A stretch of 57,426 bases of DNA, filler included, from Ionaspis alba (Eukaryota): assembly GCA_964255285.1 (NCBI GenBank). It is 5 parts of 5 records of this genome, joined end to end, with 100 filler letters (N's around TTAATTAATTAA, not from the genome) between each part and the next. Parts side by side here need not be neighbours in the genome. Positions count along the whole stretch, not along the records: positions 46,062 to 57,426 come from CAXUUL010000559.1; 4 more parts are not named here. One strand, given 5' to 3'. Below the pieces are notes generated by a model that was given only the letters and a program-made list of their open reading frames with translations, ran no database searches and was not told the origin of the DNA. The position numbers and the translations under genes are program-made. Below are positions 478 to 57,426 of this stretch, piece by piece (within the stretch, counting starts at the first letter, position 1; each line of letters starts with the position of its first letter).

Positions 478-2816
478 TCAATGATTAGATCGCGACTTTC
501 TCAAAACTTTTCGTTCCTTTTCCTTGGCTATGAGATATCATCAGTATACGATATCCAACCGAATGAATATTTGGAGAAGTTACCTACCCTCATCATAAAC
601 CAAGAATTCATGTAAAGCCTTTCCGGCCGGGACCATAGGCAAGACAGGAACCTTCTTATCGGTAACCACCTCCAACAAAGCTGGTCCATCGGTATTGATC
701 AACCACTCCAATTTGCCCTGGACATCATCTGGTTTTATGCACCGATCTGCCTGAACGCCCATCGCTTCAGCGAGCTTGACAAAATCCGGGTTCTTCTGAT
801 GCGTATGTGCGAATCGGTCTTCGTAAAAGAGACTCTGCCACTGTGTAACCATGCCTTGTTCTTCGTTGTTGAGAATGATGATTTTGACACCAATGTTGAA
901 TTGGGCAGCTGTCGAGAGCTCTGTTAGGGTCATGCTGAAGGAAGCGTCGCCGTCGATGTCGACCACAAGGGCGTCGGGCTGAGCTACTTTCGCGCCGATA
1001 GCAGAGGGAAGCCCAAAGCCCATGGTGCCAAGTCCGCCGGAAGTTATCATGGTACGTGGATATCTCCATCGGAAGTGCTGGGCTGCCCACATTTGATGCT
1101 GACCAACTCCAGTCGTAATGATCGTTTTGTCTTTCATGTTCTCAGTCAAGGTGCTAAGCTTCTCAATAACGGTCTGTGGCTTGATAAGCCCGTCCGAGGT
1201 TTCCTTTTCGTAATTGAAAGGAAATCGTGCTTTCCAGTCATTGATCTGACGGAACCATTCTGGTCGCTCAGTCTTGGTTTTGACGTGGGGAATGAGGAGC
1301 GCCAAATTGGTAGCCACATCGCCTTCGACAGCCTCCGTGGCCTGGACAACCTTGTTGATGTTCTTTGGCTGAACCTCGAAATGAACAATGCCTCCTCTCT
1401 TCTCGGCCGCAGCCGCTTTCGCTTGAGGCGCGAACTTGCCAATGCTTCCGGTTACACGATCGTCGAATCTTGCACCAAGGGCGATTATCAAATCCGCTTC
1501 CTGCATGGCCATGTTGGCATAGGCGGAGCCATGCATACCTAGCATATGTAAGGATTTATCGTCGAGTTCGTCATATCCTCCGAGTCCTTGGAGGGTTGTT
1601 GTGACAGGTATCATTGCCTTGTCTGCTAACTCCCTGAGTAGCTTTGGGCCCTCGGGTAATGCCATCATTCCCTGACCGACATATAGAATAGGTTTCTTCG
1701 CAATATTGATAAGTTCAGCTACTCGCTTTATGGCTCCGTCGAGCTGTTTCCTGCGATAATCTCGAGCGGCGAGAGTAGCAGCACTAGGATGTGAGGGCAG
1801 AGTGCTAGCGGTGGGTATCGGATGCCGAAGAATCGCAGCCGTGACGTCCTTCGGCAGGTCGACAAGAACCGGTCCAGGTCTCCCACTTGTAGCAATTTCG
1901 AAAGCCTCCTTGATGCGCTTCGGGAGCTCTGCAACGTTCTTGACCATCACGTTCCATTTTGTGCATGCTCTTGATATGCCAACGACATCTGCTTCTTGGA
2001 AAGCATCCGTGCCAATTGCACTCGTAACGACCTGGCCCGTAAATACGATGAGAGGGGTTCCGTCTGATAAAGCATCTTGCATGGGTGTAATAACGTTGGT
2101 GGCTCCAGGCCCAGATGTGACAAGCACAACGCCGGGTTTGCCCGAAGCACGCGCATACCCTTGCGCCATGTGACCAGCACCTTGTTCGTGCCTAGGAAGA
2201 ATAAAATCGAAGTGCTTTGAATTGTAGATTGCATCGAATACAGGAAGGATAGCCCCGCCAGGATAGCCGACTGACAATATGATCAGTCACGCTTCTAGGT
2301 AGTGCAGAGGTTTTGGCCAACTCACAGACATGCTTGACACCCTGGCGAAGCATCATCTCATGGAAAATCTCTCCTCCGGTAAGACCGACGAACCTGTGGC
2401 GGGAATATGTTAGACTCATTCGAAAGGACCGAAGGTTTGTCTGTCCACTCACGAGTCGTCCATCTCCGGTCGATGTACATTTTGTAACGGGTGTACTTGA
2501 TTGCGCTCCGACTCTTGGTTGAATGCTGGACTTGGGATCGGTCTGGACTGAGATTGACTAACGGTCCGATCAATCTATGTGCAGTTGACAATCGCACAAT
2601 AGCCATAGCTTACGATGCAACTGCCGCATTGGTACTCTGACCTCTTCGTGCAACCTCCTTTGGTGCTCTTGCCTGTGACGTTTGTGAAGGATTCCGATGA
2701 GGCGAAATAGCAGCAATGGTAGGTGTAGAAGAAAATGGCTGTAAAGCCGGAGGGCAAATTGATTGCCGCCGCCGGACGGCGCGTAAGGTATTCTTCGCTG
2801 GCTGAGATATGAACAT
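478..2816 (-). CDS. ILV2: acetolactate synthase (AHAS) catalytic subunit, mitochondrial; 5 exons
   Basis: Motifs FGYPGGAILP, PRHEQGAGHMAQGYARASG, TSGPGATN, GVGQHQMWAAQ and TPP-binding GDASF...NN. ATG at 2816 with an Arg/Ser-rich transit peptide. Spliced exons give RPIPSPAFNQE...MDDS-FVGLTGGEIFHEMM. Last exon reads AKEKERKVLRKSRSNH-TGA (478-480). Confidence 0.97.
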
Positions 2817-9177: not shown

Positions 9178-10597
9178 TATATCTTTGTGGGCATGAAGAA
9201 GAATCCACGGAAAGGAGTGCCAAAGAGACCCGAGGTGTACCATGATGCACTATGGCTGGGGGAGCTATTCAGTCCGCCTCACTCGTCGCCTCACTCCGCA
9301 GCTACACAGAAGCTCAAATTGGCGGCTTGACTCTAGCTTTGGCGGAAGATCAACAAACCTAGCTTAGATGAGGCGTGCCGGGTTGGTATATGCACATGTC
9401 CGTGCCATGGGACGATGTGACTGACAAGCGATGGGCACGGACATTTGGGACAACCGTAGCATTTTGGTCTTTGGTTTTGAGCAATGCCTGTCATGGTCGC
9501 CGATATCGTCCAAGTAATGTAGGAGAGCTTCAAGACACCCAGTTTCACGATACCAGAAAGAGCATTCCTGGGTCTAGATGCAAGCTTGCACGATACATTG
9601 GACGCGCCATGTTGTGCTGAGGCACGGTTACCCTGACCTCATAAGCTCAATCTGAGGAGTGCGTAAGATCGATTGCACTTGTGAAGAGAAGTACATTCGA
9701 GCACTTTATAGGGAAGGTAACACAGATATCCATAAACCGACCGTAAGGGTTTACGTACTTGTTCTTCTACACAATCATCAGATGGATCTCGCGTGTCCAT
9801 CAATGATGCTTCTCGGGATGTAAACTTGAGCTAGAACCATTCCAGCTTCACAGCCTCCACCTCCGCGCGGACGACACCCTATTGCCGCACCATTGATCGT
9901 TCGAGCCGCCGGGAAATTTACTCCTGCATGACGTCCTCCCGCCCCCATTTTATGGACTATCAGATACCTTGTACTACTATGAAGCTAGCTTCTCTACAGA
10001 ACAGCAGAGCGCAATGCCCTGTCAGTCAGCTCCGGGAACGATCGCTCCAGGACTGTGGCATTGATGAAACAGTTGTCCGTCTAAAGCTCTATCACCTCGC
10101 TTTCGTGCCTAGATCATCTGCACTGCAGCTCTCTCTTACGACATAGCTGACGTATTGACGGAGCACAGCATTTACCATATTGGCCGCAGACCTGCCTCCT
10201 CGAGCTTTGCATCTAGCGAGATCACCAGAATTTTGCTTCTAGAATCAGGACCTCGTTCTCTTTTCCTAGGACAAACAAGACTAAAACATGTTGTTTGCTG
10301 AAACACGCGAACGGCATGGGATGCTTTTCCACATTGTGCGCACGGCTTCGTCTCCCTATAGATGCATCCATCCCTTGCAGGCCATCCTGCGGGTTTGATG
10401 AGAGGCCTGATATATGGTTTCTCTACTAGAGCTTCGCCGCCTTTTTGAATCCATCCTAAGTTGTGTCGTTTTTGGCTTGCATTTTGTGCGCTGGTGTCGT
10501 AGATCACATAAATAGATTGCGAGTTCTTCTTATAGATGCTCATCGCAGGCTTTCCTTGGGAATTTCTAACAGCATGCGCGTTGCTCTGGATCAAATC

Positions 10598-30335: not shown

Positions 30336-33300
30336 ATGGACCGAGCCGGCGAAGAGTTGGCGCATGCCGCCATTGAAGTCGACGAAAAATACGCTGAAGA
30401 TACCGCCGTACCCTCCTCGAGCAGCGATCCAAAATCAAACAGCGAAGAGATTAGCGAGAAGCAGGAGGAAGATGTACAATCATCCGGGTCTTCATCCCAG
30501 GATGAGGTTGCCCTGGAAAAGATGGATTCGCAAATCATCAAGGTCGGCAATTTGAAGGAAGGCGACGAGGCATTCGCACATCTGCCGGAGCACGAAAGGG
30601 AAATCGTGAAGAGACAATTGGATATTCCCCCTATCACTGTCACGTTCAAGACGCTGTACCGGTATGCTACACGGAATGATATTATCATCATAGCAATCAG
30701 CGCGCTATGTGCTATTATTGGCGGAGCGGTCATGCCTCTGATGACTGTATGTATAGAAGTAACCAAACCAGGGACGGCTCCAGCTAACACAATCTGCAGA
30801 TTATCTTCGGTCAATTGACAGGCACCTTCCAAGGTTTCTTCAATGGAACAACCGACCCTTCAGCTTTCAAGTCTCAACTTGGAGGCTTCACCTTATACTT
30901 TCTATACCTCGCAATTGGTGAATTCGTCACGATCTATATCTGCACAGTCGGCTTCATCTACACAGGCGAGCACATCACTCAGAAAATCAGGGAACATTAC
31001 CTGGCGGCAATTCTGCGACAGAATATTGCTTTCTTCGACAAATTAGGGGCTGGGGAGATCACAACTAGGATTACAGCTGACACGAATCTCGTGCAAGATG
31101 GCATTTCAGAGAAGATTGCCCTCACGTTGACCGCTTTGGCTACCTTCGTTACTGCATTCGTCATTGGATTTGTCAAATATTGGAAGCTTACTTTAATTCT
31201 ATCGTCCACGGTTTGGGCCATTGCATCAATTATGGGAAGTGGTTCGACTTTCATTATCAAATACAACAAGAAATCTCTGGGTTCGTACGCAGTCGGAGGA
31301 ACTGTTGCCGAGGAGGTCATAAGCTCTATTCGGAATGCGACAGCCTTCAGTACACAGGCCAAACTTGCCAGGCAATACGATACTTATCTGACGGAAGCTG
31401 AAAAGTGGGGCACCCGCCTCAAGATCAGCTTAGCTATCATGATAGGCATGATGTTCTGGGTGGTAAGTACTTCTAGGCTTTTACTCCTTGTAGCATCGGA
31501 CTAATTAGTTTCCAGCTATATCTCAATTATGGTCTCGCTTTCTGGCAAGGCTCCCGATATCTTGTTGATGGGGAAGTCACCCTGTCAACTGTCATCACGA
31601 TCATGATGGCAATCATGATTGGTGCTTTCTCTCTCGGTAACGTTGCTCCCAATGCTCAGGCCTTTACCACAAGCGTGGCAGCTGCTGGCAAGATTTTCAA
31701 TACAATCGATCGCATTTCCCCTCTCGATCCTATGACCAAGGAAGGAGGGAAACTGGAACACGTCGAAGGAACAGTCGAACTTCGACACGTCAAGCATATC
31801 TACCCTTCGAGACCTGAAGTGGTTGTCATGGAAGACGTCAGTCTTATAGTACCAGCTGGCAAGACTACCGCATTGGTCGGTGCATCTGGTTCAGGGAAGA
31901 GTACCATCGTTGGACTCGTTGAACGATTTTATGATCCGGTCGGTGGCCACGTCTATCTGGATGGACACGATGTGCAGACCTTGAACCTTCGGTGGCTGCG
32001 TCATCAGATATCTCTAGTCAGTCAGGAACCGACCTTATTCGGAACGACGATTTACGGCAATATTGCGCATGGTCTCATCGGCACTAAGTACGAAAACCTG
32101 GATGACGAGAAAAAGAAGGATCTTATTATCAATGCTGCAAAGATGGCAAACGCCCACGACTTTGTTTCTAGTCTACCTGAAGGTTACGAGACGAATGTTG
32201 GAGAGCGAGGTTTCCTTCTCAGCGGAGGACAAAAGCAGAGAATAGCCATTGCTCGTGCCATGGTCAGTGACCCAAAGATCTTGCTGCTTGACGAAGCTAC
32301 ATCTGCTTTGGACACAAAATCCGAAGGTGTCGTTCAAGCGGCACTGGATGTCGCCGCGCAAGGACGAACCACTATTGTCATTGCCCATCGCTTGTCAACA
32401 ATCAAGACCGCCGATAACATCGTTGTCATGAGTCAAGGTCGTATCGTTGAGCAAGGTACTCACGACGAGCTACTTGAGAAGGGAGGAGCCTACTATAACC
32501 TTGTGGAAGCTCAGCGTATTGGCGCTGAGAGACAAGAACAGAGAACCGATGAAGAAGCCAAGAGCGACGAAGTCGAGAAACAACTCTCCAAGTCCTTGAC
32601 ACAGGAGAAATCCATCGATAACACTTTCGATCCGGACGATGTCAATCTTCAGAACAAGCTCAACAGGACGACTACCGAGAAGTCAGTCTCCAGTATGGCT
32701 TTAAGGAACAAAAAGGCAGGCCCTGCAAATAAGTACTCGTTATGGACCCTCATCAAGGTCGTCGGTTCTTTCAACAGGCAGGAGCCTGGACTCATGCTTA
32801 CTGGATTGTTTTGGTCCATCATCGCTGGAGGAGGTAATCCCACCCAAGCCGTTTTCTTCGCCAAAGCAGTGACTGCATTGTCGTTGCCTCCATCTCAGTA
32901 CGGGCAGCTCAGGAAAGATGCCGACTTTTGGTCTGCCATGTACTTGATGCTTGCATTCGTGCAGCTGCTCGCTTTCGTTGGTCAGGGTATTGCCTTTGCT
33001 TATTGTTCCGAGCGTCTGGTACATCGAGCTCGAGACCAGGCATTCCGAACAATGCTGCGACAGGACATTGCCTTTTTCGACAAGGAGGAGAATTCTGCTG
33101 GTGCTTTGACGACCTTCCTTTCGACTGAAACGACCCACCTGGCCGGTATGAGTGGTACCACCCTGGGTACGCTACTAGTTGTCTCGACCACACTTATCGC
33201 TGCGATAAGTTTATCTACTGCCATCGGCTACAAACTCGCCTTGGTCTGCACAGCAACGATCCCAATCTTGCTCGGCTGTGGATTCTTCCGTTTCTGGATC

Positions 33301-34472
33301 CTTGCCCAGTTCCAAACCCGCGCAAAGAAAGCCTACGAGTCCTCCGCTAGCTATGCCTGCGAAGCCACCTCTGCCATCAGGACAGTTGCGTCTCTGACCA
33401 GAGAAGAAGACGTCTGGCAACACTACCACGAATCCCTCGTCCTTCAAGGTCAAAAATCCCTAATCTCCATCCTCAAATCCTCCACCCTCTACGCCTGTTC
33501 CCAATCCCTCATGTTTCTCTGCATCGCTCTTGGCTTCTGGTACGGCGGCACCCTCATCGTCTCCGGCGAATACGGCATGACGCAATTCTTCATCTGTTTC
33601 TCGGCCATTATCTTCGGCGCCCAGTCCGCCGGTACCATTTTCTCTTTCGCCCCTGATATGGGAAAGGCTAAACATGCTGCTCATGAGCTCAAGACCCTCT
33701 TTGACCGCAAGCCTGAAATCGACTCCTGGTCCTCCGAGGGCGAGCCCGTCGATCATATCGAAGGCACCATTGAATTCCGAGACGTGCATTTCCGCTACCC
33801 TACTCGCCCCGAGCAGCCCGTCCTCCGCGGCCTGAATCTGACTGTCAAGCCAGGGCAATACGTCGCCCTCGTCGGAGCGAGCGGATGTGGCAAGAGCACG
33901 ACTATTGCGCTGCTAGAGCGCTTCTATAACCCGCTTTCGGGTGGCATCTTCGTCGACGGCAAGGAGATCTCGAGTCTCAACATTAACGACTACCGCGGCT
34001 TCTTAGCGCTTGTCAGCCAGGAACCGACGCTGTACCAGGGCTCGATACGGGATAATGTGCTTTTGGGTGCGGATCGGGAGGATGTGCCTGATGAGGAGAT
34101 TGTGCAGGCTTGTAAGGATGCTAATATTTACGAGTTTATTATGTCGTTACCGTAAGTTTTTCTCTTTCCTCCCACTTTCCTCCCATGTTTGGCGTGTACT
34201 AAGTGTACTTTCAGTGACGGCTTCTCCACCATCGTCGGCTCAAAAGGTAGCATGCTCTCGGGCGGCCAAAAACAGCGCGTCGCCATCGCCCGCGCTCTTC
34301 TCCGCGACCCCAAGGTCCTCCTCCTCGATGAAGCCACTTCTGCGCTCGACTCCGAGTCGGAGAAGGTGGTCCAGGCTGCTCTCGATGCTGCGGCTCAGGG
34401 GAGGACCACGATCGCGGTGGCGCACCGCCTTAGTACGATTCAGAAGGCGGATATGATTTATGTGTTTGATCA
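30336..34472 (+). CDS. MDR1: ABCB (P-glycoprotein-type) multidrug transporter, 3' truncated by the scaffold end
   Basis: TMD-NBD-TMD-NBD layout. Walker A GASGSGKS and GASGCGKS, two LSGGQKQR signatures, Walker [13 protein letters not shown]-loop AHRLST. Confidence 0.95.
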
Positions 34473-43050: not shown

Positions 43051-44370
43051 TCATTCCGCTCTCCTCAACCTCCCCTCCCACTCCACCCTCAACCTCTCCA
43101 TCTCGTCCCACACCTTCCCGCCTAATGTCTCAAACTTCCTCCTTGCCTCATCGGTCAGATCCGGCGCCCCAACTCTCCTAACCGCCCGTCCTCCAAACCT
43201 GCTCTCATCCCCAACCGTCCCTCCGAAGCCCCACCCCTCCACTTCCGTCCGCAGCACTTTCTCTCTTCCCCACGCATCCGTCGCACTTCCCCACTTCGCC
43301 TTGCCGTCCTTCTCCTCCAACGCATCGAGCGTATCCTGTGGCGTCAGCCCCAGCCACACTGGGGCCGTCGCGCCTTGATATGTCGTTATTGTGTGCCACG
43401 GCGATCCTAGCCAGCGCGCGAAGTAGAAGGCCAAAAGCTTGAGGTACAGCACAACGATCATAAGGGGGAGAATCTTGGTGTCGCAGACGCCTGGGTGGCA
43501 GACATAAGTTTTTGGTCTCAGCGACTGGGGAATAGGGTCGCCTGTGGGTGTTGAAAGGAATGAAGAAACGGCGTTTTGGGAGGGCGGAAGTGAGGCATTG
43601 AGAGCGAGGACTTCGGTGAGGCGCTTCGAAGAGTGGTAAGCGTAAGGGCTTTGAATGCCTTGGATATCAGATGCATTGAAGGCTGCGGCTGTGGCTTCGA
43701 TGCTGCCGATCCAGATGATGCGAGCCGGATGGGAACGTGGGGTGGATGTGAGTAGGGGCATCAAGGCGTGGGTAAGCATGTAATGACCGAAGACATTGGC
43801 GGTGAAGACTTCGCCGAGGGGTGGCTCTGGTGGGGATGTGTTGGCGGGCAACTGGGGTTTGGCGAGGAGGCCGACATGGTGGAGGAGATATGATGGATAG
43901 GTGGTCGCTTTGAGGGTGTCTACAGTGGCTTCCCAGAGTGCGGGTGGCCAGTTGATAGCACGGACGCCAGAGATGCCGGCGTTGAGGTAGAGGATGTCGA
44001 GGCGGGGGAGGGTGGTGAGGAGATTGCGGGAGAGGGCGAGGACCGAGTTGAGATCGAGGAGGTCCACTTGGAGGGATCGAAAGGTTATACGAGGAGATGA
44101 GGGTGTATTGTTGGAGTTGTGTTTGAAATGCTTTCGGAGAGAGACTAGGGTATCCTGAGACTTTTTGGTGCTTCGGGTCGTGATGATGAGGTTAAGCGTA
44201 GAGGTGGATGGCTTGGTTGCGAGGAACTCGTCAATCAGACGGGAGCATATTGCGCTGCCGAGTCCACTGGTAGGACCTTAGCAAAGTCCTTAATAGACAA
44301 TTGAAAGGAGGACTTACGCATTTGCCCCTGTAATAAGGACATATGTACATCGTGGATCTATATTCACCAT
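43051..44370 (-). CDS. ERG27: 3-keto-steroid reductase (SDR family)
   Basis: Spliced Rossmann motif VLITGANA-GLGSAICSRLIDEFL; LDILYLNAG; VFTANVFGHY; catalytic YHSSK; HPG; YFARWLGSPWH. Confidence 0.9.
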
Positions 44371-45052: not shown

Positions 45053-45961
45053 ATGTTGCTGGTAGCTTTGGCGGCCATTGGAAGCCTATTCGGTCAAGCG
45101 CACGCCCAAGTTCCTGGAGTTGACCTCACGAAACTGCCATTATGTGCTGTAAGTTACTTGTTGTCGGCTACGGAACGGTCCTAACGTTTTGAAGCAAGGA
45201 TGCCTTACAAACAATACTGGTGCAGCATTTGGTTGTGCCATATCGGACATCCACTGTGTTTGCAGTAGTATACCATATATTAATGCCCTGTCATGCTGCC
45301 TTATACAGAAGTGCAATTCGACAGAACAGAGAGGTAAGCCTCCAGAGGCACATGCAGCCAGTGCACTATATACTCATAAAACCATAGCGGCACTCACTTT
45401 CGACATTGCTCTGTGCGCCACCTACAATGTTAGCATCCCCAACTTTCTGGGTTGTTCACCACTGGAAACAACCGGAACGTCAGGCGGAAGCACAATATCA
45501 GGGGCCAGCGTAGCTACGGGGAGCACCATTTCGTCCTTGAGTATAGCAACAGTCTCAACGTTAAGCAGTGTTCAATCTGCTGTAACAACGACGAGCGATG
45601 GTCCAGTTGCCACCTTCACTGGCGGCAGATTACTCGGCGGGTCATGCACTGTTCCTCATATAGCATCTTACACAATGGATTCAGGAGGCGTCCTCGAATA
45701 CCCCTGGGTCGGCTGCTCTGGAAATTCTCCTGAATGTTGCCCGTATGACATTTCTCAAGCCGGACCTCTGACGGTCTGCCCAGCCGACTACTTTACCACA
45801 AACTCAGCCTGCTGTCCCTCGTAAGAATCCCTCCCCTAGCCTAATCTATAGTTGCCACGCTAACACTCCTCCCCCTACAGCGGCTGGTCCATCTACACCT
45901 CCACCATCGCAGGCCAAACCCCCTGCTACACAACCGCCGCCCTCCCCCTCGTGGCCCCAAC
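45053..45961 (+). CDS. secreted or cell-surface CFEM-domain protein with a second Cys-rich domain, 3' truncated
   Basis: Signal peptide MLLVALAAIGSLFGQAHA. CFEM pattern LPLCAQGC...GCAISDIHCVC...CCLIQKC...ALC. S/T-rich stalk, then GCS..SPECCPY...CPADY....ACCPSGW...PCY. Confidence 0.82.
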
Positions 45962-46061: not shown

Positions 46062-46471
46062 GGGGAGTGATGTGGGGAATGAAGGGAGGGAATGGGGAGG
46101 GGAGATTTATGGAGTATAGATGCTTTGGTTGGCTTTTGCTCGGAGACATTTGCTTGATACTTGGTTATACTCGTGAGACTGTTGGTATCACTTCATATAG
46201 TTGAGGTAGTCAATCGGAGCCCATCCGTGGGATTTAGTACATCGCTGGTCTAGCTAAGTGTCCTTCAGTGGACCATATTCAATCATTCTTGTTTGCAAAC
46301 GTTATCAGATCATGGACATCGGTCGGAAGCGAATGTGTTCGTTAAGACATGGTACATCATAAAGCAAGATCGCCAAGCTCGTCCTCATCCAAGAGCCCGG
46401 TCCGGCGAACCGAGAAAAAATTTTCTGGAAAGAAACCAGGAACTGTCTACTCAATTGTGTGTTTCCGCCTC

Positions 46472-48289
46472 TCACGAAACTTGTCTACGCCTAAATCGAA
46501 TAGTCTGACTCCTATCAGGTCCAATCCTCTCATCAACAAAGACATTTGCCGGTCTCTCCATCTGACCTTCAGGGAAATCAAAATCGTACTTCAGCAGCAG
46601 ACTGGCCAGAATAAGTTTGATCTGGGCTGCAGCGAAGAAGCGACCTGGACAGGCATATTTGCCGTGGCCGAAGGGGAGGTTGATCGATGAGGTGCTAATA
46701 TGAATGTTAGTGGCTGTATTAGAAGCTGGGAGTGAGGAACTGACCTGGTGAACTGGTGGCGATTGGCTTCTTCCGGGGACGATTGGCGCATTTCATAGAA
46801 GCGGAAAGGCCGGAACTCATCGGGTGCAGGATAGTAGGCTGGATCTTTCGCGATGCAGGCGGTCGGCATGGTTACGAAGGTGCCGGCTGGAAGGAATGTG
46901 CCGTCCGAAAGGGTCATGTCTTTGAGGACTTTGCGGTTGAATGAGACTGGAGAGACTGTTGTCAGACAGAAACCTAGTGGGAGGAAGCACTATGGGAAGA
47001 CATACGAGAGCCTGGATGATTCAGGCGTTGGGACTCCTTGAGCAAACTGTCAAGTTTCTTCATTTTGTTGATGGCCGATAGCTTGAGACCGCCCTCTTCG
47101 GCGATCGCATTTTGAATCTCTTCTCTTAGAGGCTCAATATACTGAGGCATGGCGCAGAGATCGAACAAGGCGTGACAAGCACTCATGGTACTGGTATGGA
47201 TAGATGCAAGACAGAGAAATAGAACCTTGCGAGAAAGCTTGGCAGGAGTCCCATCACTTCCCTCCGCCGAGTCGGTCATCCATTGCAGGAGGTCCAAAGG
47301 CTTGTCTTCTCCCTTCTTGGAAGGAGTCCGAGAGTTCAGGATAGGAGTCAGGTGCTTTCTTGCAATGGCAAGATGACCCTGCACTCTCCTCCTGGAGTCG
47401 AGGAAGTAATAGATGAATGGTCGGACCATCCAGTGACGATCTCGAAGTGCTCCTGCAACTGCAAATGCGTCAAGCGTATAACCGACCGTCGTGGCCAGCC
47501 ATTCGGGGTTGCGGCATAGGGGAAGTCCCACAAACACTCGAGACATCACCCGAGAGATTGTGTTCAAGAGCACAGTGTGTCCATTATGAGAGTGCCAGTC
47601 TGAAGTTTGGTGTCAGAAAAGGGCCTCGATCACAGTTGCGGTACTTGACTATCTCACCGTTGTTATCAACACAATCAGGAAGCTCTTGCTTCAGTGCAAA
47701 GTTGACTTCATCCTGCATACTTTCCATGGATCGAGCTATATAGGAAAAGTTTAGTACCTGATGACGAGATTTGACAATTCAGCTCAAAAGAGACGTACCC
47801 AAATTCTGGGTCATTTGTACACGACAGACATCGTTTTGCAAGTGACTTTCCAGAACCACGCTCAATGTGGTGTAACGACCCAAATGTCTCTCGTTCATTG
47901 CTACCCGAGTACTGAGATGGGACTCTGGAGCCACACGAAGCTCTTCCACGTATTTGTTCGATAGAACAACTCTTTCCATATCTGCCGTCTGGATAAGAAA
48001 TGCAGAGTCTTTGAACTGGATCCATAGGAAGCCTCATCAATTTCTGTCTGTAAATCCTTCTTTTTGGAGTTCAGCGTACCTTTGAGTAGCCATCTTCAAG
48101 CAATTTGTGACCGTTGGCTAGGAAATCAGCTTTGACAGCCGCCACGCCCACCTTCTTCGGATCCTTTCCAACACGTGGGATCCTCAACTTCTTTCCATAA
48201 TTAAGGAATTCTTGTGCAAGAATAGCAGTAAGGCCGCAAAGAGCAGCGTATACGCAGAAACGGACGGCGAGTTCACCGAGAGGAGACAT
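46472..48289 (-). CDS. cytochrome P450 (terpenoid-tailoring, ent-kaurene oxidase/PaxP-like clan), cluster P450 A
   Basis: N-terminal TM anchor; I-helix LASIHTS; ExxR in KESQR; PDEFRPFRF; heme motif FGHGKYACPGRFFA; about 6 exons; stop TGA at 46472-46474. Confidence 0.92.
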
Positions 48290-49661
48290 TGATGTTCTTT
48301 GGTGGGAGAACTTTCGACTGTTGCAATTGAGATGACAGATTTGTTGCAAGTCCATCTTCACTCAGGCTGGGGGATATCCTTGAGAGGCGGTGGAGGTCAT
48401 TTCGGGAAGGTTGCATGCTCAAATAGTCTGACCTGTCGCGCGAAGGTCTCCTTGGATTGCCCCCGCTCTGTGTTGCGCCGAATAGCTCAATTGCTCAACA
48501 GCCAGGTACCCTCCGTCCACGGTTGACGTGACATTTTGGCCTTCCACTTTGGTTACACACACTTGAATGTCAGATTATGATGTGTTCTTGTCATGGCATT
48601 CCCACACGCAGCCATTGAGGTCATACCCAGCCAGAGATAGAGATCCTTCGATTAAGAATTCTCCCTTACTCTGCATATGCTTCTGCAAGCCAAGTATTGT
48701 AGATAGGATATCGGACACATCAACTGAGCATCCGCTATATGCACGTTGAGCTTCAGACGCCATCTTCCTGCAGTGTCGTTGTGATGGGGACGAGAATAAG
48801 ATTGATAGACAGTTACAGTGTCGTAGAAGATCCTCGTGCTGACACCGTTGATGCCGGTCTGGTCAACCTCCGTGATGGACTACAACTTCCCGATTGGTTA
48901 GCGATTTCCAGTCCTGTAATGCACGAGCACACTAAAGATGTTAATTACACTGGTGGCTTACTAGTTGCTCCACGCCATCTCGTCATCCCGCCTGTACCAC
49001 ACGAATCCTCCCGAGCACAGATTCAGCCTCTATAGGCTAGTATCTTCGAACCCTAAATTGTCCTTTCTGCAGACCTCATATCCAGATTATGCCACGGCTC
49101 CCCAATAGGATCAACACCTTTTATCACCCAATAAGTCTACTCGGCCGTAGAGCAATGACCCCCACCACCTCGAGACGCAATGCAAAGTAAGATTTTGGCT
49201 CGACCACATTAGACGATGTAACGAGGCCCTGTGCAGCGGCTCCAGTCATTTTCGGGGGAAATTGGAATTGGTAGAATCTACCCGACGCAGAACTCTCTCC
49301 CATGTGCTCTCGACAATCTTCAGATCCCAGCTCGACCCTTACATCTCTCACCGCCATCGTCGTCAGCGGTTGACACTTCGAATCCTGAGCTATGCATAAT
49401 GTTTTCGGCTTTGTTTGGACCGCATGTGACTCGAGTTCGCATTTCAAAGCAATGCATGTGAACTGTTGCACTATTCGTGCAGTAATTGACTAGAAGGACT
49501 GTATATTTCAAGGATACCATTCTTGCCCCAATTTGGGGTCAGTGCCTTTAGTCTGTTGTCAATATCTGCTACCCCTTTTTCGACTTGAAGCACTGTTCAG
49601 TTCTTGATATCAGCTACAATCATCTTGCTGCTTAAATATTATTACAAGCTCACTAGCAATC

Positions 49662-51048
49662 ATGAGCGTTGAAAACCCTCTTCAGATCTGGAGCAGTGAT
49701 GTTTCCACCTTTCCATCTGAGCCTTCAAGTCCCACTCAGATGTATGAAGAACTACCCGAGCATGGACAGAAGAAGAGGAAGCTTGTAAACTTGCCTCCGA
49801 CTCCTCCTAGTCCCGTTGAGGAGGAGTCACTTTCTGCTGGCACATCCGTCTCCGGGGATGATGTCAAATCTGAACTAGGAGACTGTGATGAAGAAGGAAG
49901 CAGCGCCATAGAAAAAGATCAATCAAGAGAAAATGCTCGTTCTATAAGGGACTGGATGAAAGAGGCCTGGACAGAAAAGACCGAGCTGGTATGTCTTCAA
50001 ATTTCGCTTGAGGAGAGAAAGAAAACTAACAAAGACTTGAAGATCATCAATGAGCCATACAACTATCTGATATCACACCCTGGAAAAGACATCCGGAAGC
50101 AGGTTATCGCTGCCTGTAATGTCTGGCTTCAGGTAGACCGTGAGTCACTAGATATCATCGGTGAATCAGTCTCCATGCTGCACAATGCCTCGCTGCTGTA
50201 AGTCAATATCTCTGTATTCAATCTTGACTTCAATGCATTACCTTGTCAAGTCAGGATCTAAGTTATTTCATACAGCATCGACGACATCCAAGATAGCTCT
50301 CAAATCCGTCGAGGCTTTCCTGTAGCTCATAATGTCTACGGCATCGCTCAGACCATCAACAGCGCCAATTACGTCTACTTCCAAGCCCAACAGCATTTGA
50401 TGAGGCTACAAAACTGGCCAGCTGCCGTCGAAATTTTCAACGAGGAGTTGTTGAATCTTCACCGCGGTCAAGGCATGGATCTCTTCTGGCGAGACACTCT
50501 GACCACCCCGACAGAAGAGGAATACTTGCAGATGATCTCCAATAAGACCGGTGGTCTCTTCAGACTGATGATTCGACTCATGATGACCCAGAGCCGGACT
50601 GGAATCGATCTGGTCCCATTCGCCGAAGTCATGGGATTGATCTTCCAGATCCAGGATGATTACAAGAATTTGACATCTGCCCAGGTAAGTGCCATATCAA
50701 TCAAGCAACTACGAACAATGAGACTGGGTGCTGACTACGTAACAGATGAGCTCAGCAAAAGGCTATTGCGAAGATCTGACGGAGGGCAAATTCTCCTTCC
50801 CCATCATCCACGCCATCCGTCACAGCCCCTCGGACAACAACGAGGTCATGAACATCCTCAAGCTCAAAACCGAGGATCATGCACTCAAGGAACATGTTGT
50901 CAAATACATGTCTGACTCGGTCAAGAGCTTTGACTACACGAAGAAGATTGTACAGGATTTGTATGTGCAAGCGAGTCAGATGATGGAGGAGCTGCAGCCG
51001 TGTAATCTGACTATGAAGCTTATCTTGGATAAGCTGGTTGCTGAGTAG
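49662..51048 (+). CDS. geranylgeranyl diphosphate synthase (cluster-associated, ggs2/PaxG-like); 4 exons
   Basis: [14 protein letters not shown]; first Asp-rich motif [44 protein letters not shown]; second Asp-rich motif [21 protein letters not shown]. Confidence 0.94.
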
Positions 51049-51558
51049 AAGCTTGGATTGGATCTCACAGGGGCGGGGCAAGGCGCGGTATTGGCGTTTG
51101 GTGATTGTATTGAGCAACAGCAGTGCTAGTCATTTAGATATCCAATAAATGCCAATTATGCAAACTCTATCATATGTTCCAAAGTGAGATATCGTGGTAT
51201 GGTCGTTAGGATGATTCATCCTCGAATGATGGCAGTCACTGATAAGCCTAAGGAGAGTCTGTGCCGTGACTGCCAAGGTAATCCTCCTCGGCCCCAAAGC
51301 AAACCCCCGAACTTGGGCCAACTGTTCTCACAAATTGACACTTCCAACCAGAGATTTCTCAGCTCGGAAAATTTCGTGATCACGGTCAAGAAGTAGAAGA
51401 TGTAGTGATAAGGTCATAAAGCATTTCTGGTGCTAAACTACTCTCCCCTCACCATAGCCTTTACGAAAACTCTGACTACCCGACATCTAGATAAAAACTT
51501 GGAATTCGCATGCCATCAAGTAAGGCCCTCCCAGTCATTCAGCCATGTCAACAAACAA

Positions 51559-53340
51559 TCACAACATGGTCGAAACCTTCTCATTCTTCTCCGTCCTCTT
51601 CCTCATCAGCAGCCTAGCCGATGGATCCGGATAGATGTTCTCATCAGCAGTCATATTCTTCGGCCGACCCTTACCTTCCGGATACTTAAAGTCGTACTCC
51701 AACAACAAGTGCGAGAGTAGCATCTTGATCTCATTTGCTGCGAAGAATCTGCCCGGGCAGGAGAACTTGCCATGACCAAAGTGGAGATGGTCTTTGGATG
51801 TGACAGCAAACTGGTGCTTGTTAGCTTCGGCGGGATCTTCACGCTTGCGGTACCAGCGGAAGGGATCGAAAGTGTCGGGATCGGGGACTACAGAAGCGTC
51901 CATCATGATTGGAGCTGCGGCCACGGCGACGTGTGTGCCTTTCGGGAGCTTGACACCGTCGGAAAGGGTCAAGTGAGACGTTGCAATACGATTGAATGCC
52001 ACTGGCTTATGTCAGACGTGGATTCCCCACACAGAAGGGATATCATGTTAGGGATACTTACATAAACTAGGAGGGTTGATCCTCTGAGACTCCTTCAAGA
52101 AGCTGTCCAGCTTGCGCATCTTGGTCAAAGTGGTCTTGTTCCAGCCACCATCTTGGCTCAAGACTGCCTCCATTTCCTCGCGGACTGGCTCTAGGAATTC
52201 CCGATGAGCACAAAGGTCGTAGAGAGCATGAGCGGCGGACATAGTCGTGGTGTGAATAGATGCCAAGCTGACCAAGAGCTGTCGATGGGCAAGTTTGTAT
52301 GGCTTGCCTTCGTCCTCATCGGCGGCATCCATCATCCATTGAAGAAAGTCGACCGGCTTCTGGTAATCTGGACCTTGCTCAGCTTCTGTTTTGCGGCGCT
52401 CGTTGACCAGTGGGACGATAAGTTTCTTGCTAAGACGGAGATTCTGGTGGATCCGGTACCAGGAAGGTAGGAAACGGACAACGAAGGGATGCATATATCC
52501 TGGGAACATCCGGAGGGCAATAACGGTCATGAAGATGTTCTCGGTGTAGTGGATTGAAGTCTCAAGCCATTCCTCGTTACGGCATAGTGGAAAGCCCACA
52601 AAGATTCTGGCCGAGATGCGGGCCACGATGCGGAGTAAAATGTCGTAGATTGACACTTCGACCCAGTCTGCAGAGGGTCACATGTTAGCACACTTTAATG
52701 ATTTGTACTGACAGACGCTTCAGCTCACCATCTGCCTTGGGCACTTCCACGCCGATTGCAAAATTGAGTTCATCTCGGATGATGTGGACCAGTGATCCGA
52801 GGCTAGGAGTCAACTTGGTTTGAAGAGTTCGAGTGTGAAGATCACTTTCAAGAAGAATGTTTGTTGTCGAATAAGGTCCAAGGAGATTCTAGTCAAAGTC
52901 AGTTTTCTGGATCTCTCCCAGTATGTTCGAGAGTTCAAGGCTCAACCAACCTTGATATGAGCATGGATAGCACTGGCTTTAGCATCCGGAAGAGCTCGAA
53001 GTTCATCGACGTACTTGTTCGAGATGACAAGAATATCTGCATCATTGCGGCGAACCTTGAACATGTTGTTCTTGAACTTATTGTAGCCTTCCATCACAAT
53101 TGGCCATGCTCCCTGGCAGAAGCGAAATCTCAGGATGAAAGTTGGTTCCCAGAAGCTGCGGTAGCCAACGAAGGGAGCTTTGACCTTGACATCGTTGCGG
53201 AACAGAGAGCTCAGCATGAAAAGACCTGCAAGACCTGCAAATACGAGTTTGACTGAGACCTGCCAGTCGATGCCGTCTTTCCACTGTTTGTCAAGATACT
53301 CAGTGCCCCAAGTGGGTATGCTATCAATAGTAGAATTCAT
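51559..53340 (-). CDS. cytochrome P450, CYP503-like (ent-kaurene oxidase-like), cluster P450 B; 4 exons
   Basis: N-terminal APFVGYRSFWEPTFILRFRF resembles Fusarium P450-4 (CYP503A1) as recalled. I-helix SLASIHTT; KESQR; heme motif FGHGKFSCPGRFFA. Confidence 0.92.
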
Positions 53341-54534
53341 CTTCTGGTGTTCAACTCGTTCAGTCAAGATGTGTTTGACCAAAGCAAAGGCTAGCAAAAC
53401 AACACTCAGTCGATTTGTGTCACAGGACAATTCTTTGGAGGATGATACAGAGAGAGCAGTGATCCAGAGATATCGAAAGGGGCCAATTAAAGAGAAATGG
53501 TAGGATGATGCTCGACCCCTCTCATTCACCTATGATACTCTGAATTATTAAGGTTATCCACGTAAACCACGCTTCAGGAGGCCACGCCTCAGGATGATCG
53601 AAGCGGTGAAGAGATAGCAAGGTGCTGCATGCTCGTGCGGCATCCTCAGCTCTAGCATTGCTACGGTGATGAAACGACGACATTGTGCATGCGAAGATAA
53701 GAACCTCTTCCGACGTGTTTTGGTAGATTGAGATTTTGATATCTTGGCGGAAAGAGACCATGCAACATCGGCAAGACTAGGACGAGGGCAGTGACAGGGG
53801 TAGCGGGTGGAGGCTTAAATTACGATACCATTACCATAGCGCGAATACCATAAATACGGATTCTCGGCTCCATCGCGGAAGGATGGTATGAAAGCCTACA
53901 CGTCAACGTACATTCACAAATCTCCATCTTCATCCTTTCGGATCAATAGATAACGACCGGTGGTGATCTCCTAAGGCTGAAGAATTGCATAAAAAGTTGT
54001 GGGGCTAATGTGGCATCGGACTCATGTGACGTTGCAGAATAAAGCCGACATGCAAGGAGATACCCCCGGTCCCCGACAACGACGCTCTGATCCTTGAGGA
54101 TGATGAATATAGCCGCCATGGCCTCCTGGCTGACGCCCATATGCGTACTCGTTCGCTGCGGATATGCAGTCAGCTTATTTTATCCTAGTGTCGGTCTTCC
54201 GCATATTTCGTGCTCCGCAGCCACTGTTACACCGTTCAAGATACGTATGCCTCTTTTGTGTATCGTCAACGATAACGGGTAGAACTGCTCGAACTTGCTT
54301 AGTTAGGTGTACAGAGGTGGTACACCATTGACTCTGACTTGCAGCTCTCCCAATGCTGATCATTTTATTGGATTCGAAAACAATGAGGAAATGAAGTGCA
54401 TTGGCAAAGGAGGAGCGAGGAATGCCAAGCAAGANNNNNNNNNNNNNNNNNNNNNNNNNNNNNNNNNNNNNNNNNNNNNNNNNNNNNNNNNNNNNNNNNN
54501 NNNNNNNNNNNNNNNNNNNNNNNNNNNNNNNNNN

Positions 54535-57424
54535 GAGTCTTTTCAGTATCTCCTGGACGCTCAATCACCGAGAGGCGGATGGGTTTCCGATGGGACACAG
54601 TTCGATGGAATTTTGAATACTATGGCTGCTGTCTTGGCCCTCAGTAGGCACGCCAAAGCTCCCTCTCTTTCGGGAGTCTCCCTCCCGAAAGATCTGGAAT
54701 CACGAATGTCGAATGCCATTGCTTTTCTCCAAGCGGAATTACAGGAATGGGACGTCCAAGCTACCGAGAATGTGGGCTTTGAATACCTGCTTCCAGCACT
54801 TCTAGATCTATTGGAGCAAGACGGAATCTCATTCAACTTTCCTGGCAGGCAATCACTTATGGCAATCAACAAGCAGAAACTTGCAAAGTTCGACCCGAGA
54901 ATGCTGTACAGTACATCAAAATCGACCCCTATACACTCTCTGGAGGCTTTCATCGGCAAGATCGATTTCGACAAAGTGCGTCACCAGAAGGACTTCGGTA
55001 GCATGTTGGCATCTCCTTCTTCGACCGCGGCTTACCTTATGCATTGTTCCCAATGGGACGACGAAGCAGAGGCTTACCTTCGGGTTTGCTTGGCATTCGG
55101 CGAGGGAAAAGGCAATGGAGCTGTTCCGTGTGCTTTTCCAATTACCATCTTCGAGTTGACTTGGGTAACTATTGAGCATGCAACGTCTTTCTAGACTCGA
55201 ATGCTAACGCCAGTAAAGGTGATATCTACTCTTCTTGAGTGTGGCTTTTCAGTCGAATCGCTCGAACCCGATTGTCTATCGAAAGTTGCGGATTACCTTG
55301 AGCTTCATTTACAGGATCAAAATGGTCTTGTTGGTTTTGGTAAGTTGCCAATATAATAATCTTCCTTATACTGAATCTAACATTCTCATGCATCAAGCTC
55401 CTGGACTTCTATCAGATGCAGATGATACAGCGAAGACGATTCTCTCCCTCAACTTGCTTGGCAGGCCAATTTCTCCAGATCAGATGATTGCGGAATTCGA
55501 AACGAAATCGCACTTCCAAACCTACAAGGCTGAGCGGAATGCTAGTTTCAGCGCCAATTGTAATGTCTTGAATGCTCTTCTTCATGACCCCGAACCAGTC
55601 AAATATCTAAGCCAGATACACAAGACCGCCAACTTCCTTTGTGACTCCTGGTGGGCAGGTAGCCTCAAGGACAAGTGGAATCTGGCCCCGCAGTACGCAA
55701 TGATGCTTTTGACCCAAGCCTTGATGAATTTGCTTCGCCTTTGGGACAAGGAAGCGTTATCCACGTTATCTGAAAGGCTTGTCCACGATCGGATTCCTGT
55801 CGTTCTCTTGGAGATCCTGGTTCGAACTTTGGAGAGCCAGAACTCCAATGGATCATGGGGCACCAAAGACTCGTGCGAGGTTACAGCATATGCTGTTCTG
55901 ACCGTCGCATCTGTATCTTCCTTTCCTGCTCTCAGCTCTCTGGGACCACAGATTACCTCCGCCATTACAGCTGGGCGAAAGTTTCTCTCTCTATCCACTG
56001 AGAAATGGAACCAGCCCGATCATCTCTGGATCGAAAAGGTCAACTATGGATCCGCCGTACTCTCACAGACGTACTGCCTAGCAGCCATGAACATCTCCAC
56101 TTCTCCATACACATGGGGACAGAACGTTTCAGGACTTGCTCCAATCCCAATGAAAGCCGTTGCCAAATTCTCCCAATTCTTCTCCAGACTACCTTTATTC
56201 TCCAACGGACCAGAATGGAAGCTCCGTTCCTCCCTCATCGAAGGTTACATGTTCCTTCCCCAACTCAAACGCGTCCGACTCGACATCTTCCCTCGAACCG
56301 AAATGGCTGAAGACAAATACCTCGAATATATCCCCTTTACCTGGACAGCCTCCAACATCATGGGCGGCCACCAGATGAGAGCGGATCTCCTCTGGGAAAT
56401 GATGATCATATCCATGCTCAACTACCAAGCCGACGAATACATGGAAGCGGTCGTCGGCCACCACTTCGAGCACGACCTCGAACCCATCAAGCAAATGATC
56501 CGCGCCCTCTGCAAAGACCCCAAAGACGAGCCTATTCCTTTTCCCTCAACCAACAAAAAACGTCCTCATCCCGACGACGACGATGCCTCCTCTGAACCTG
56601 CCACCAACCCCAACAATAACCACATCATGACCACCACCCCACCCGACACCGACACCGAAGGCCCCAACATCTCCGAAATCCGCAAAGTCCTCGGCCGCTT
56701 TACTACCTACGTCCTCACCCACCCCGCCACCCTTTCGGCCTCCCTCCACGACCAACGTCTCCTCCGCCACGAACTCTCCACCTTCCTCCTCGCCCACCTC
56801 ACCCACGTCGAAGACAACACCCGCTTCGGGCGTCAAAACCCCTCCTCCGTCACGCACACCACCCCCTTCCTCTCGCCCTCCTCATCTACATACTATGATT
56901 GGGTCCGCACCACCTCGGCGGATCATACCTCGTGTCCTTATTCGTTCGTGCTGTATGGATGTCTGGTTGCGGCGAATGGGAAGGGGAGGGATGCGTGGAG
57001 GGGCGTTAGGGAGAAGTATGTCGCCAGGGATTTGTGTCGCCATTTGGCGGCTATGTGTCGCATGTACAATGATTTTGGGAGTGTGGGCAGGGATCGGGAG
57101 GAGGAGAATTTGAATAGTGTGAATTTTTTGGAGTTTCATCCTGAGGGTTTGGTTGGTGGTGGTGGTGTGGTCGGTGAGTGTAAGGGTGTAAGGGATGATG
57201 ATGGTGCGAATCATGGGGTTGATGGGGAGATGGAGGAGGAGAGGATCAAGAAGGATTTGTTCTTTGTGGCTGAGTATGAGAGGGAGGGGTTGAAGCTGGC
57301 GGTGGGGAAGGTAGAGGGGATGGTCGCGGAGGCGACGAGGAGGGCTTGGAGACTGTTTGTTGATGTTACGGATTTGTATGGGCAGGTTTATGTGGCGAGG
57401 GATATTGCTAGTCGGATGAAGTAG
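54535..57424 (+). CDS. cps/ks: bifunctional class II/class I diterpene cyclase (copalyl diphosphate synthase/kaurene synthase family); 5' end lost in the gap at 54435-54534
   Basis: QxxxGxW repeats (QSPRGGW, QNSNGSW); HSLEAF; ASPSSTAAY; class II DxDD (DADDTAK); KDKWN; LWIEKV; class I DEYME; DHTSCPY; NSE/DTE motif RMYNDFGSVGRD; TDLYGQVYV. Two introns near 55165-55218 and 55340-55397. Confidence 0.95.
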
Positions 57425-57426
57425 TC

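What the first reader, a model, noticed from the sequence alone, without database searches (positions are those of the whole stretch)
46472..57424. Compact labdane-related diterpenoid gene cluster: P450 <- -> GGPPS and P450 <- -> CPS/KS
Seen: the whole 11.4-kb scaffold holds four pathway genes in two divergent pairs. These are a GGPP synthase, a bifunctional cyclase with intact DADD, DEYME and NDxxSxxxD motifs, and two P450s with intact heme motifs. Established: GGPPS + CPS/KS + P450s is the core of the fungal gibberellin (Fusarium), aphidicolin (Phoma betae) and pimaradiene (Aspergillus nidulans) clusters. Inference: the cluster makes an oxidised tri- or tetracyclic diterpenoid (kaurane, pimarane or aphidicolane type), possibly an undescribed one. 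The cyclase stop lies 2 bp from the scaffold end, so further genes (TF, transporter, oxidases) may lie outside. If the host is a lichen fungus (not proven here), it is a candidate pathway for lichen diterpenes such as 16-hydroxykaurane or sandaracopimaric acid.
Basis: partly seen in the sequence, partly recalled or inferred. Interest (0 to 1): 0.85.

Follow-up and report, generated by a model that had tools for sequence, protein, structure and literature searches.

The report
Lichen-class fungal diterpenoid gene cluster
Four neighbouring fungal genes form an ordinary, well-known kind of pathway for an oxidised ring-shaped diterpene, here in a fungus of a mostly lichen-forming group where no such pathway seems to have been tested yet.

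Summary
The cluster is real. Scaffold 46062-57426 holds P450A(-), GGPP synthase(+), P450B(-) and a bifunctional class II/I diterpene cyclase(+). All four splice into stop-free frames with their catalytic motifs. A close relative's run shows 4 of the 13 predicted introns spliced out. The same gene order recurs at 50-79% identity in one other fungal species group, which adds a third P450 and an O-methyltransferase; partial versions occur in two more lineages. RPA2 places the host in Ostropomycetidae (Lecanoromycetes); lichenisation is not shown. The cyclase is at most 51% identical to named proteins, 43% to the PbcA-like clade, and lacks the gibberellin-clade signature. The best guess is an oxidised (iso)pimarane; an aphidicolane-like tetracycle is the main rival. 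Cyclase + GGPPS + P450 clusters are common in fungi, so this is a new member of a known kind. Interest 0.38, not 0.85.

The parts
46062..57426 (.). Scaffold that carries the cluster (G000:C559, 11,365 bp); bounded on the left by an N-spacer-N linker and on the right by the window end
46472..48289 (-). P450A, 507 aa, 6 exons (48289-48080, 48015-47799, 47735-47658, 47599-47006, 46946-46745, 46694-46472); N-terminal hydrophobic anchor, ASIHT, ESQR, FRPFRF, FGHGKYACPG
   Evidence: 42.5% identical to P450B and 51% to the best protein held (P0191, Zopfia); syntenic orthologue 57-74% per exon in L006
48290..49661 (.). 1,372-bp divergent intergenic region, presumed bidirectional promoter of P450A and GGPPS
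   Evidence: no k-mer sharing with the second divergent region beyond shuffles
49662..51048 (+). GGPP synthase, 397 aa, 4 exons (49662-49988, 50043-50197, 50276-50684, 50746-51048); DDIQD and QDDYKN; one of four strong GGPPS-like loci in G000
   Evidence: introns 1 and 2 seen spliced in run X3
51049..51558 (.). 510-bp convergent spacer; relatives carry a third P450 here, with no trace of it in the window
51559..53340 (-). P450B, 532 aa, 4 exons (53340-52951, 52888-52729, 52667-52062, 52001-51559); ent-kaurene-oxidase-like (CYP503-like by inference); ASIHT, ESQR, FDPFRW, FGHGKFSCPG
   Evidence: introns 1 and 3 seen spliced in run X3
53341..54434 (.). Divergent intergenic region, presumed bidirectional promoter of P450B and the cyclase
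   Evidence: same P450B <- -> cyclase layout in L005-type loci, L009 and L012
54435..54534 (.). Assembly gap (100 N) hiding the cyclase start codon and about 55 residues
   Evidence: median 54 residues precede the W.FP motif in the 48 of 120 homologues where the pattern was found; a loose end of 255 letters lies before 54535 in run X1
54535..57424 (+). Bifunctional class II/class I labdane-related diterpene cyclase, 925 aa visible, 3 visible exons (54535-55164, 55219-55339, 55398-57424); DADD 55415-55426, DEYME 56432-56446, NDFGSVGRD 57068-57094

Best explanation
An intact, probably expressed biosynthetic cluster for an oxidised labdane-related diterpenoid in an Ostropomycetidae fungus. Step 1 (established for the family): a dedicated GGPP synthase makes GGPP from IPP and DMAPP/FPP. 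Step 2 (established for the family, motifs shown here): the cyclase protonates GGPP at its DADD site to a copalyl diphosphate, then ionises it at the Mg2+ site (DEYME plus NDxxSxxxD) to close more rings. Step 3 (inferred): the skeleton is most likely a tricyclic isopimara- or pimaradiene. My odds: about 50% (iso)pimarane, 20% aphidicolane or other non-kaurane tetracycle, 12% ent-kaurane, 10% bicyclic labdane or manoyl oxide, the rest inactive. Step 4 (inferred): membrane-anchored P450B oxidises a C-4 methyl (C-18 or C-19) to alcohol or acid, as ent-kaurene oxidase does, and P450A makes a second, unknown oxidation. Step 5 (inferred from layout only): each divergent pair is driven from one shared promoter region. 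The stated confidence is for the cluster type, not the skeleton.
For: Four stop-free spliced models with GT-AG introns and catalytic motifs. Cyclase: 521 relatives among 8000 candidates scored, named ones at most 51% identical; an alignment profile hits PDB copalyl diphosphate and diterpene synthases; the model (mean pLDDT 88.3) matches class II cyclases at E 1e-8 and class I terpene synthases weakly, E about 1e-3 to 3e-2. P450B is 62-65% identical to P450s whose locus tags or contig lengths put them beside cyclase hits in Acrodontium, Sclerophora, Arthroderma, A. thermomutatus and A. bertholletiae. Four-gene order and orientation are kept in 6 of 14 fetched loci, all one species group, and GGPPS-P450B-cyclase in L009. 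Spliced contigs of run X3 skip 4 of 13 predicted introns. A 20-residue stretch around DEYME matches A. otae_a and A. sojae_a at 16/20, A. nidulans_c at 15/20, F. fujikuroi at 12/20 and P. betae at 10/20 (counted by eye from Table 1). The characterised Aspergillus enzymes make isopimaradienes.
Against: No product or activity is shown. The cyclase N-terminus is unseen and no contig piece spans the gap. The cyclase falls outside the PbcA-like clade and is only 43% identical to it. Enzymes with different products share 36-39% and enzymes with the same product can share as little as 34-39%, so identity does not fix the skeleton. No characterised fungal bifunctional cyclase or named CYP503 sequence was in hand for direct comparison. 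No shared promoter motif beyond chance. X3 is only guessed to be RNA, is one study, is 93-97% alike and so not this strain, and its one listed cyclase piece crosses no intron. G000 is a fragmented assembly, so RPA2 and the cluster could in principle come from different organisms.
Confidence: 0.88

Rival explanations
1. Aphidicolin-like pathway: the cyclase goes through syn-copalyl diphosphate to an aphidicolane or other tetracyclic alcohol, and the two P450s hydroxylate it.
For: The minimal aphidicolin pathway has exactly this gene content: GGPPS, cyclase, two P450s. One P450B hit at 65% is named 'P450 monooxygenase No.2'; that this name echoes PbP450-2 is my reading.
Against: The P. betae cyclase row matches worst of the five rows counted around DEYME (10/20 by eye). 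The relatives carry a third P450 and an O-methyltransferase, so the four-gene content is not fixed.
Confidence: 0.2
2. ent-Kaurane or gibberellin-type pathway giving ent-kaurenoic acid derivatives or 16-hydroxykaurane.
For: Automatic names of hits include 'ent-kaurene synthase' and 'ent-kaurene oxidase'. The His of the HSLE motif is present. Fungal kaurene oxidase is CYP503.
Against: Gibberellin-clade rows read N(H)IGVE where this enzyme reads NVGFE. The HSLE His is in nearly all homologues listed, so it is not diagnostic. F. fujikuroi uses four P450s and two are here. The names are transferred labels.
Confidence: 0.12
3. The four genes are a fragment of a larger cluster; regulators or more tailoring genes lie beyond the scaffold ends and decide the final product.
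For: The cyclase stop is 2 bp from the end and only about 400 bp lie beyond P450A. An O-methyltransferase follows the cyclase in 9 of 14 related loci. The assembly is incomplete: no RPB2 match above 31%.
Against: G000 holds no close orthologue of that methyltransferase (best 38%) or of the third P450 (best 48%), though incompleteness weakens this. L006 and L010, of the same species group, lack the methyltransferase within 10 kb. This rival is compatible with the best explanation.
Confidence: 0.35
4. A silent, decaying or mis-joined locus: the cyclase is broken inside the gap or does not adjoin the other three genes.
For: The gap hides the start; no listed piece in four runs bridges it. Several motif-bearing Magnaporthe cyclases gave no product in expression tests.
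Against: No stop in 2,361 visible codons. The loose end before the gap reads in frame as SNGKSQWCFP, the conserved motif (translated by eye). Depth is alike on both sides (119 and 117). Relatives show the same junction.
Confidence: 0.07

Closest known systems
Aspergillus nidulans pbc cluster (PbcA, PbcB, PbcG) and Neosartorya/Aspergillus CPS-PS isopimaradiene synthases
   Same: GGPPS + bifunctional cyclase + P450. P450B is 63-64% identical to the P450s on the contigs of the PbcA-like cyclases P0073 and P0090. P0073 and P0090 share the DEXXE 20-mer with the A. nidulans_c and N. fischeri rows; that this row is PbcA is my inference.
   Different: Cyclase only 43% identical and in another clade, against 84% between PbcA and NfCPS-PS. 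No HMG-CoA reductase, dehydrogenase, methyltransferase or transcription factor on the scaffold; two P450s rather than one.
Phoma betae aphidicolin pathway (PbGGS, PbACS, PbP450-1, PbP450-2)
   Same: Identical minimal gene content.
   Different: Cyclase motif rows differ most. Orthology of the P450s and gene order were not tested.
Fusarium fujikuroi gibberellin cluster
   Same: GGPPS, bifunctional cyclase with DEYME, a kaurene-oxidase-like P450; divergent P450/GGPPS pairing (recalled).
   Different: Seven genes with four P450s and a desaturase; different cyclase signature.
Uncharacterised syntenic clusters in L005-type loci, L009 and L012
   Same: Same order and orientation; exon identities 46-79% in L006; cyclases of the L005 and L012 types fall in one group with the window enzyme, Circinaria and Xylographa (SH-aLRT 91).
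   Different: L005-type adds a third P450 and mostly an O-methyltransferase; L009 shows no P450A or third P450 within 10 kb; L012 shows no GGPPS on its 7 kb of upstream flank.

Membership tests
Fungal bifunctional class II/I labdane-related diterpene cyclases | DxDD acid motif | tested here: met
   DADD, residues 257-260 of the model
Fungal bifunctional class II/I labdane-related diterpene cyclases | DExxE and NSE/DTE metal motifs | tested here: met
   DEYME and NDFGSVGRD; fungal DEXXE rule from PMC4617483
Fungal bifunctional class II/I labdane-related diterpene cyclases | Three-domain gamma-beta-alpha build with a full alpha domain | tested here: met
   Profile hits over gamma-beta; model of the last 700 residues matches class II cyclases strongly and class I folds weakly; aligns to 963-aa P0003 over 939 columns. 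First ~55 residues unseen.
Fungal bifunctional class II/I labdane-related diterpene cyclases | Converts GGPP to a polycyclic diterpene | not testable with these tools
   needs expression and GC-MS
Fungal labdane-related diterpenoid gene clusters | Cyclase clustered with GGPPS and P450s | tested here: met
   pattern described in PMC4617483
Fungal labdane-related diterpenoid gene clusters | Co-expression of the genes | tested here: inconclusive
   One run guessed to be RNA, from a close relative, shows spliced GGPPS and P450B and an unspliced-region piece of the cyclase; contigs give no levels
Gibberellin clusters | Cyclase of the ent-kaurene synthase clade (N(H)IGVE signature rows) | tested here: not met
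   NVGFE here; motif comparison by eye, no full sequences
Gibberellin clusters | CYP503A + CYP68A + CYP68B set | tested here: not met
   Two P450s on the scaffold; further genes off the scaffold not excluded
A. nidulans pbc (isopimarane) cluster | Cyclase inside the PbcA/NfCPS-PS clade | tested here: not met
   43% to P0073 and P0090, separate clade; clade identified by motif rows, not by PbcA itself
A. nidulans pbc (isopimarane) cluster | HMG-CoA reductase, SDR, methyltransferase, Zn2Cys6 regulator in the cluster | tested here: inconclusive
   Absent from the scaffold, but both ends are cut
Aphidicolin pathway | GGPPS + cyclase + two P450s | tested here: met
Aphidicolin pathway | Orthology to PbACS and syn-CPP chemistry | tested here: inconclusive
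   10/20 around DEXXE by eye; full sequence not in hand
CYP503 family (P450B) | Over 40% identity to a named CYP503 | not tested
   No named CYP503 sequence was returned; hits carry names such as ent-kaurene oxidase; family label is inference; the 40% rule is recalled
Lichen-forming fungus (host) | Placement among Lecanoromycetes | tested here: met
   RPA2 78% to Xylographa, 77% to Ptychographa and Lambiella; clade with Stictis and these at SH-aLRT 100, quick tree, one gene
Lichen-forming fungus (host) | Lichenised lifestyle | not testable with these tools
   The clade also holds non-lichenised forms such as some Stictis (recalled)

The most novel reading that the evidence does not exclude
The cluster belongs to an old, modular diterpenoid pathway of lichen-class fungi: a fixed P450B <- -> cyclase core with a P450A <- -> GGPPS module and optional third P450 and O-methyltransferase. 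Its cyclase group has no tested member, and the P450A lineage has no close named relative among the proteins held. It makes a skeleton or oxidation pattern not yet described and would be the first diterpenoid pathway of a Lecanoromycete tied to its genes, with natural gain-or-loss variants that reveal what each oxidase does.
Probability: 0.3. Interest if true: 0.62.

Novelty: new member of a known kind. Interest (0 to 1): 0.38.

Why it matters
Fungal labdane-related diterpenoids are called pharmaceutically important but underexplored (PMC10999977). A survey of 724 terpene clusters of lichen-forming fungi found none grouping with a characterised cluster and leaned to triterpenes (PMC11457338). 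A compact, intact cluster that is spliced in a close relative is a cheap heterologous-expression target, and the relatives with and without the third P450 give a built-in comparison. The architecture and chemistry are textbook, so a specialist would not be surprised; the value lies in the unknown product and the host group.

Tried and rejected
Pfam found no family for the cyclase or for two full-length homologues: a library gap, not evidence against. No RNA holder is on record in the run listing. P450A had no cover in X3; contigs show presence, not absence, so nothing is drawn from it. No listed piece bridged the gap or extended the right end usefully. Shared promoter words between the two divergent regions did not exceed 200 shuffles for k = 8-12, and blastn against relatives' spacers gave only 12-base hits. 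Repeat search gave short chance pairs and P450A/P450B paralogy. No remnant of the third P450 on the scaffold. RPB2 could not be used for the host, so RPA2 was used. The records behind L005-L012 are not held, so flanks beyond 10 kb were not read. Xu et al. 2017 is not held; its cyclase results are taken second-hand, and its P450 results are recalled only. The plant LHS/PNV base motifs do not fix stereochemistry (PMC11795633) and were not used to call a product. The careful RPA2 tree did not finish; quick trees were used and a FastTree for P450s, with no bootstrap. P450A got no database search of its own; its best relatives come from the P450B search.
Full report
Observation. The window is five scaffolds joined by N-spacer-N linkers; the finding fills the last one, 46062-57426, which is G000:C559. 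G000 is 18.3 Mb in 1,282 contigs and lacks an RPB2 match above 31%, so it is incomplete. Splicing at GT-AG introns with branch-site motifs gives four frames with a single terminal stop: P450A (minus, 48289-46472, 507 aa), GGPPS (plus, 49662-51048, 397 aa), P450B (minus, 53340-51559, 532 aa) and the cyclase (plus, 54535-57424, 925 aa). Pfam matched 7 of 11 exon pieces; the cyclase pieces had none, but nor did two full-length homologues.

A 100-N gap at 54435-54534 sits at the cyclase start. In the 48 of 120 homologues where the W.FP pattern was found in the first 200 residues, a median of 54 residues precede it, so about 55 residues are unseen. In run X1 a loose end of 255 letters lies before 54535; its last 30 letters read in frame as SNGKSQWCFP (translated by eye), continuing the conserved motif. 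No listed piece bridges the gap, but depth is 119 and 117 on the two sides and relatives show the same junction.

The cyclase. Its last exon found 521 relatives among 8,000 candidates scored; the closest is an unnamed ENA protein at 68%, then Trapelia, Circinaria, Aspergillus cristatus and others at 46-51%. It hits two Penicillium copalyl diphosphate synthases in the PDB at E about 1e-50, and a profile of 100 of the 120 listed relatives hits 13 terpene cyclase sequences. A model of the last 700 residues (mean pLDDT 88.3) matches class II cyclases at E 1e-8 to 2e-4 and class I terpene synthases weakly. In a quick tree of 60 rows (58 of the 120 hits, chosen mostly for having names, plus the window model and a paralogue), it groups with the ENA protein (100) and then with the L005-type, Circinaria, Xylographa trunciseda and L012-type enzymes (SH-aLRT 91); the Trapelia hit falls elsewhere. 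P0073 and P0090 share the DEXXE 20-mer of the A. nidulans_c and N. fischeri rows of PMC4617483 Table 1, which I take as the PbcA clade; the window enzyme is 43% identical to them and outside their clade.

The P450s. P450B found 155 relatives among 732 candidates; full-length identity is 62-65% to proteins of A. wentii, Acrodontium, Sclerophora, A. bertholletiae, Arthroderma and A. thermomutatus. Locus tags put several beside cyclase hits: Acrodontium R9X50_00768600 and 00768900, Sclerophora M1837_003022 and 003017, Bogoriella M1820_007862 and 007866. Source names include ent-kaurene oxidase; fungal kaurene oxidase is CYP503 (PMC7758035), so I call P450B CYP503-like by inference. P450A is 42.5% identical to P450B and 51% to a Zopfia protein, and sits outside the P450B group in a FastTree of 39 rows; it had no search of its own. 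G000 has three more strong GGPPS-like loci, so this GGPPS is likely pathway-dedicated (inference).

Synteny. A metagenome scan gave 14 loci. Ten of them are 98-100% identical over the cyclase (L014 was not in that comparison) and count as one lineage. Six (L005, L006, L007, L008, L013, L017) show P450A(-), GGPPS(+), P450B(-), cyclase(+) in the window's order; L011, L015 and L016 show the last three with P450A beyond the 10-kb flank; L010 shows only a scrap of GGPPS beside a transposase-like frame; L014 and L018 show the cyclase alone. Per-exon identity to L006 is 57-74% for P450A, 57-79% for GGPPS, 46-69% for P450B and 50-67% for the cyclase. This lineage has a third P450 between GGPPS and P450B (10 of 14 loci at 97% or more, and L012 at 52-55%) and an O-methyltransferase after the cyclase (9 of 14). 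The window has 510 bp there and no remnant; G000's best matches are 48% and 38%. L009, whose P450 is 86% identical to one of Pleopsidium, keeps GGPPS-P450B-cyclase; L012 keeps third P450-P450B-cyclase. So three lineages besides the window share a modular cluster.

Expression. Four runs were listed and laid. X3, guessed to be RNA and 93-97% alike, has contigs that skip 4 of the 13 predicted introns at the predicted places: GGPPS introns 1 and 2, P450B introns 1 and 3. It also has a 137-base piece of the cyclase that crosses no intron. This supports the gene models and shows transcription in a close relative, from one study; it gives no levels and no co-regulation. The two divergent spacers share no words beyond chance.

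Host. RPA2 from G000:C919 is 85% identical to an unnamed protein and 77-78% to Xylographa, Ptychographa and Lambiella. A quick tree of 40 rows (39 of 120 hits) places it with Stictis and these genera at SH-aLRT 100, that is Ostropomycetidae (subclass assignment recalled). The cyclase's neighbours Circinaria and Xylographa agree, which fits vertical descent. One gene, a binned assembly and non-lichenised members of the group (recalled) leave lichenisation unproven.

Mechanism and product. GGPP supply, two-step cyclisation and P450 oxidation follow from the families. The skeleton does not. By eye, the 20 residues around DEYME match A. otae_a and A. sojae_a at 16, A. nidulans_c at 15, F. fujikuroi at 12 and P. 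betae at 10, and the gibberellin-clade rows read N(H)IGVE where this enzyme reads NVGFE. The four Aspergillus/Neosartorya enzymes tested make isopimaradienes and the pbc cluster yields sphaeropsidin-type isopimaranes (PMC13644022). That, and the likeness of P450B to the P450s of PbcA-like clusters, make an oxidised (iso)pimarane the best guess, about 50%. Against certainty: PbcA is 36-39% identical to enzymes with other products (PMC3323652), CiCPS-PS makes the same product as AnCPS-PS and NfCPS-PS at 34-39% (PMC10999977), and the gene content equals the minimal aphidicolin set. C-18/C-19 oxidation by P450B rests on the kaurene oxidase analogy and on recalled results of Xu et al. 2017, which I could not read.

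Novelty. In a 2015 survey 19 of 56 fungal diterpene synthase regions had a GGPPS and 17 had two P450s, and a Xanthoria region with GGPPS and three P450s was already listed (PMC4617483). The kind is known, also in lichens. I found no report of a tested lichen diterpene cyclase in three searches of the held library (20 listings read of 186, 97 and 40); subscription papers are mostly missing, so this is weak. PMC11457338 says none of 724 lichen terpene clusters grouped with a characterised one. Verdict: new member of a known kind, interest 0.38.

Papers seen. Whole text: PMC10999977. First part of six plus passages: PMC13644022. Passages plus part 1 of section 6: PMC4617483. Passages only: PMC11600568, PMC11795633, PMC9609704, PMC3323652, PMC11457338, PMC5534450, PMC6272487, PMC7758035, PMC10512213, PMC8403587, PMC4950769, PMC9134587. 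Listing only: PMC4625925. No supplements were opened; those of PMC4617483, PMC10999977 and PMC11457338 may list related lichen clusters.

Noticed in passing
G000:C653 (L004:1116-6353): A second divergent P450(-) <- -> diterpene cyclase(+) pair in the same genome; the cyclase is 30-47% identical to the window's, with DADVDD, DEFME and NDLASAERD, and sits on a long branch.
   Followed up: partly
G000:C628 (L038:1277-2853 and 9228-9998): A P450B-like gene (52%) and a GGPPS (58%) at the contig end, with a transporter-like frame between: probably part of another terpenoid cluster.
   Followed up: partly
G000:C235 (L039, L040): A 21-kb contig with about five P450 genes, including P450B-like and third-P450-like ones, and an O-methyltransferase-like frame; no core synthase was looked for.
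   Followed up: partly
G000:C32 (L041): Two or more P450s beside a weak prenyltransferase-like match (37-39%), a possible further terpene cluster.
   Followed up: no
window 56500-57424: Strong GC-skew flip in the cyclase 3' end (-0.66 at 56700-56899, +0.80 at 57100-57299), milder in L005 and L009; depth in X1 falls from about 117 to 48 over 55994-57426, which may explain the assembly break.
   Followed up: partly
window 46472-48289 and 51559-53340: P450A and P450B are 42.5% identical and share two intron positions, suggesting an old duplication within one P450 clan.
   Followed up: partly
window 45153-45961: A CFEM-domain protein (E 1.4e-06) ends the previous scaffold; it is not a neighbour of the cluster.
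   Followed up: partly
L010:13134-18718 and 0-1700; L006 downstream of 12000: Mobile-element-like frames (reverse transcriptase, transposase) flank the cluster in some members of the related species group, replacing the methyltransferase side.
   Followed up: no
window 583-2286, 31477-34152, 43054-44277: Other scaffolds in the window carry frames that look by eye like acetolactate synthase, an ABC transporter and a 3-ketosteroid reductase; ordinary and unlinked.
   Followed up: no
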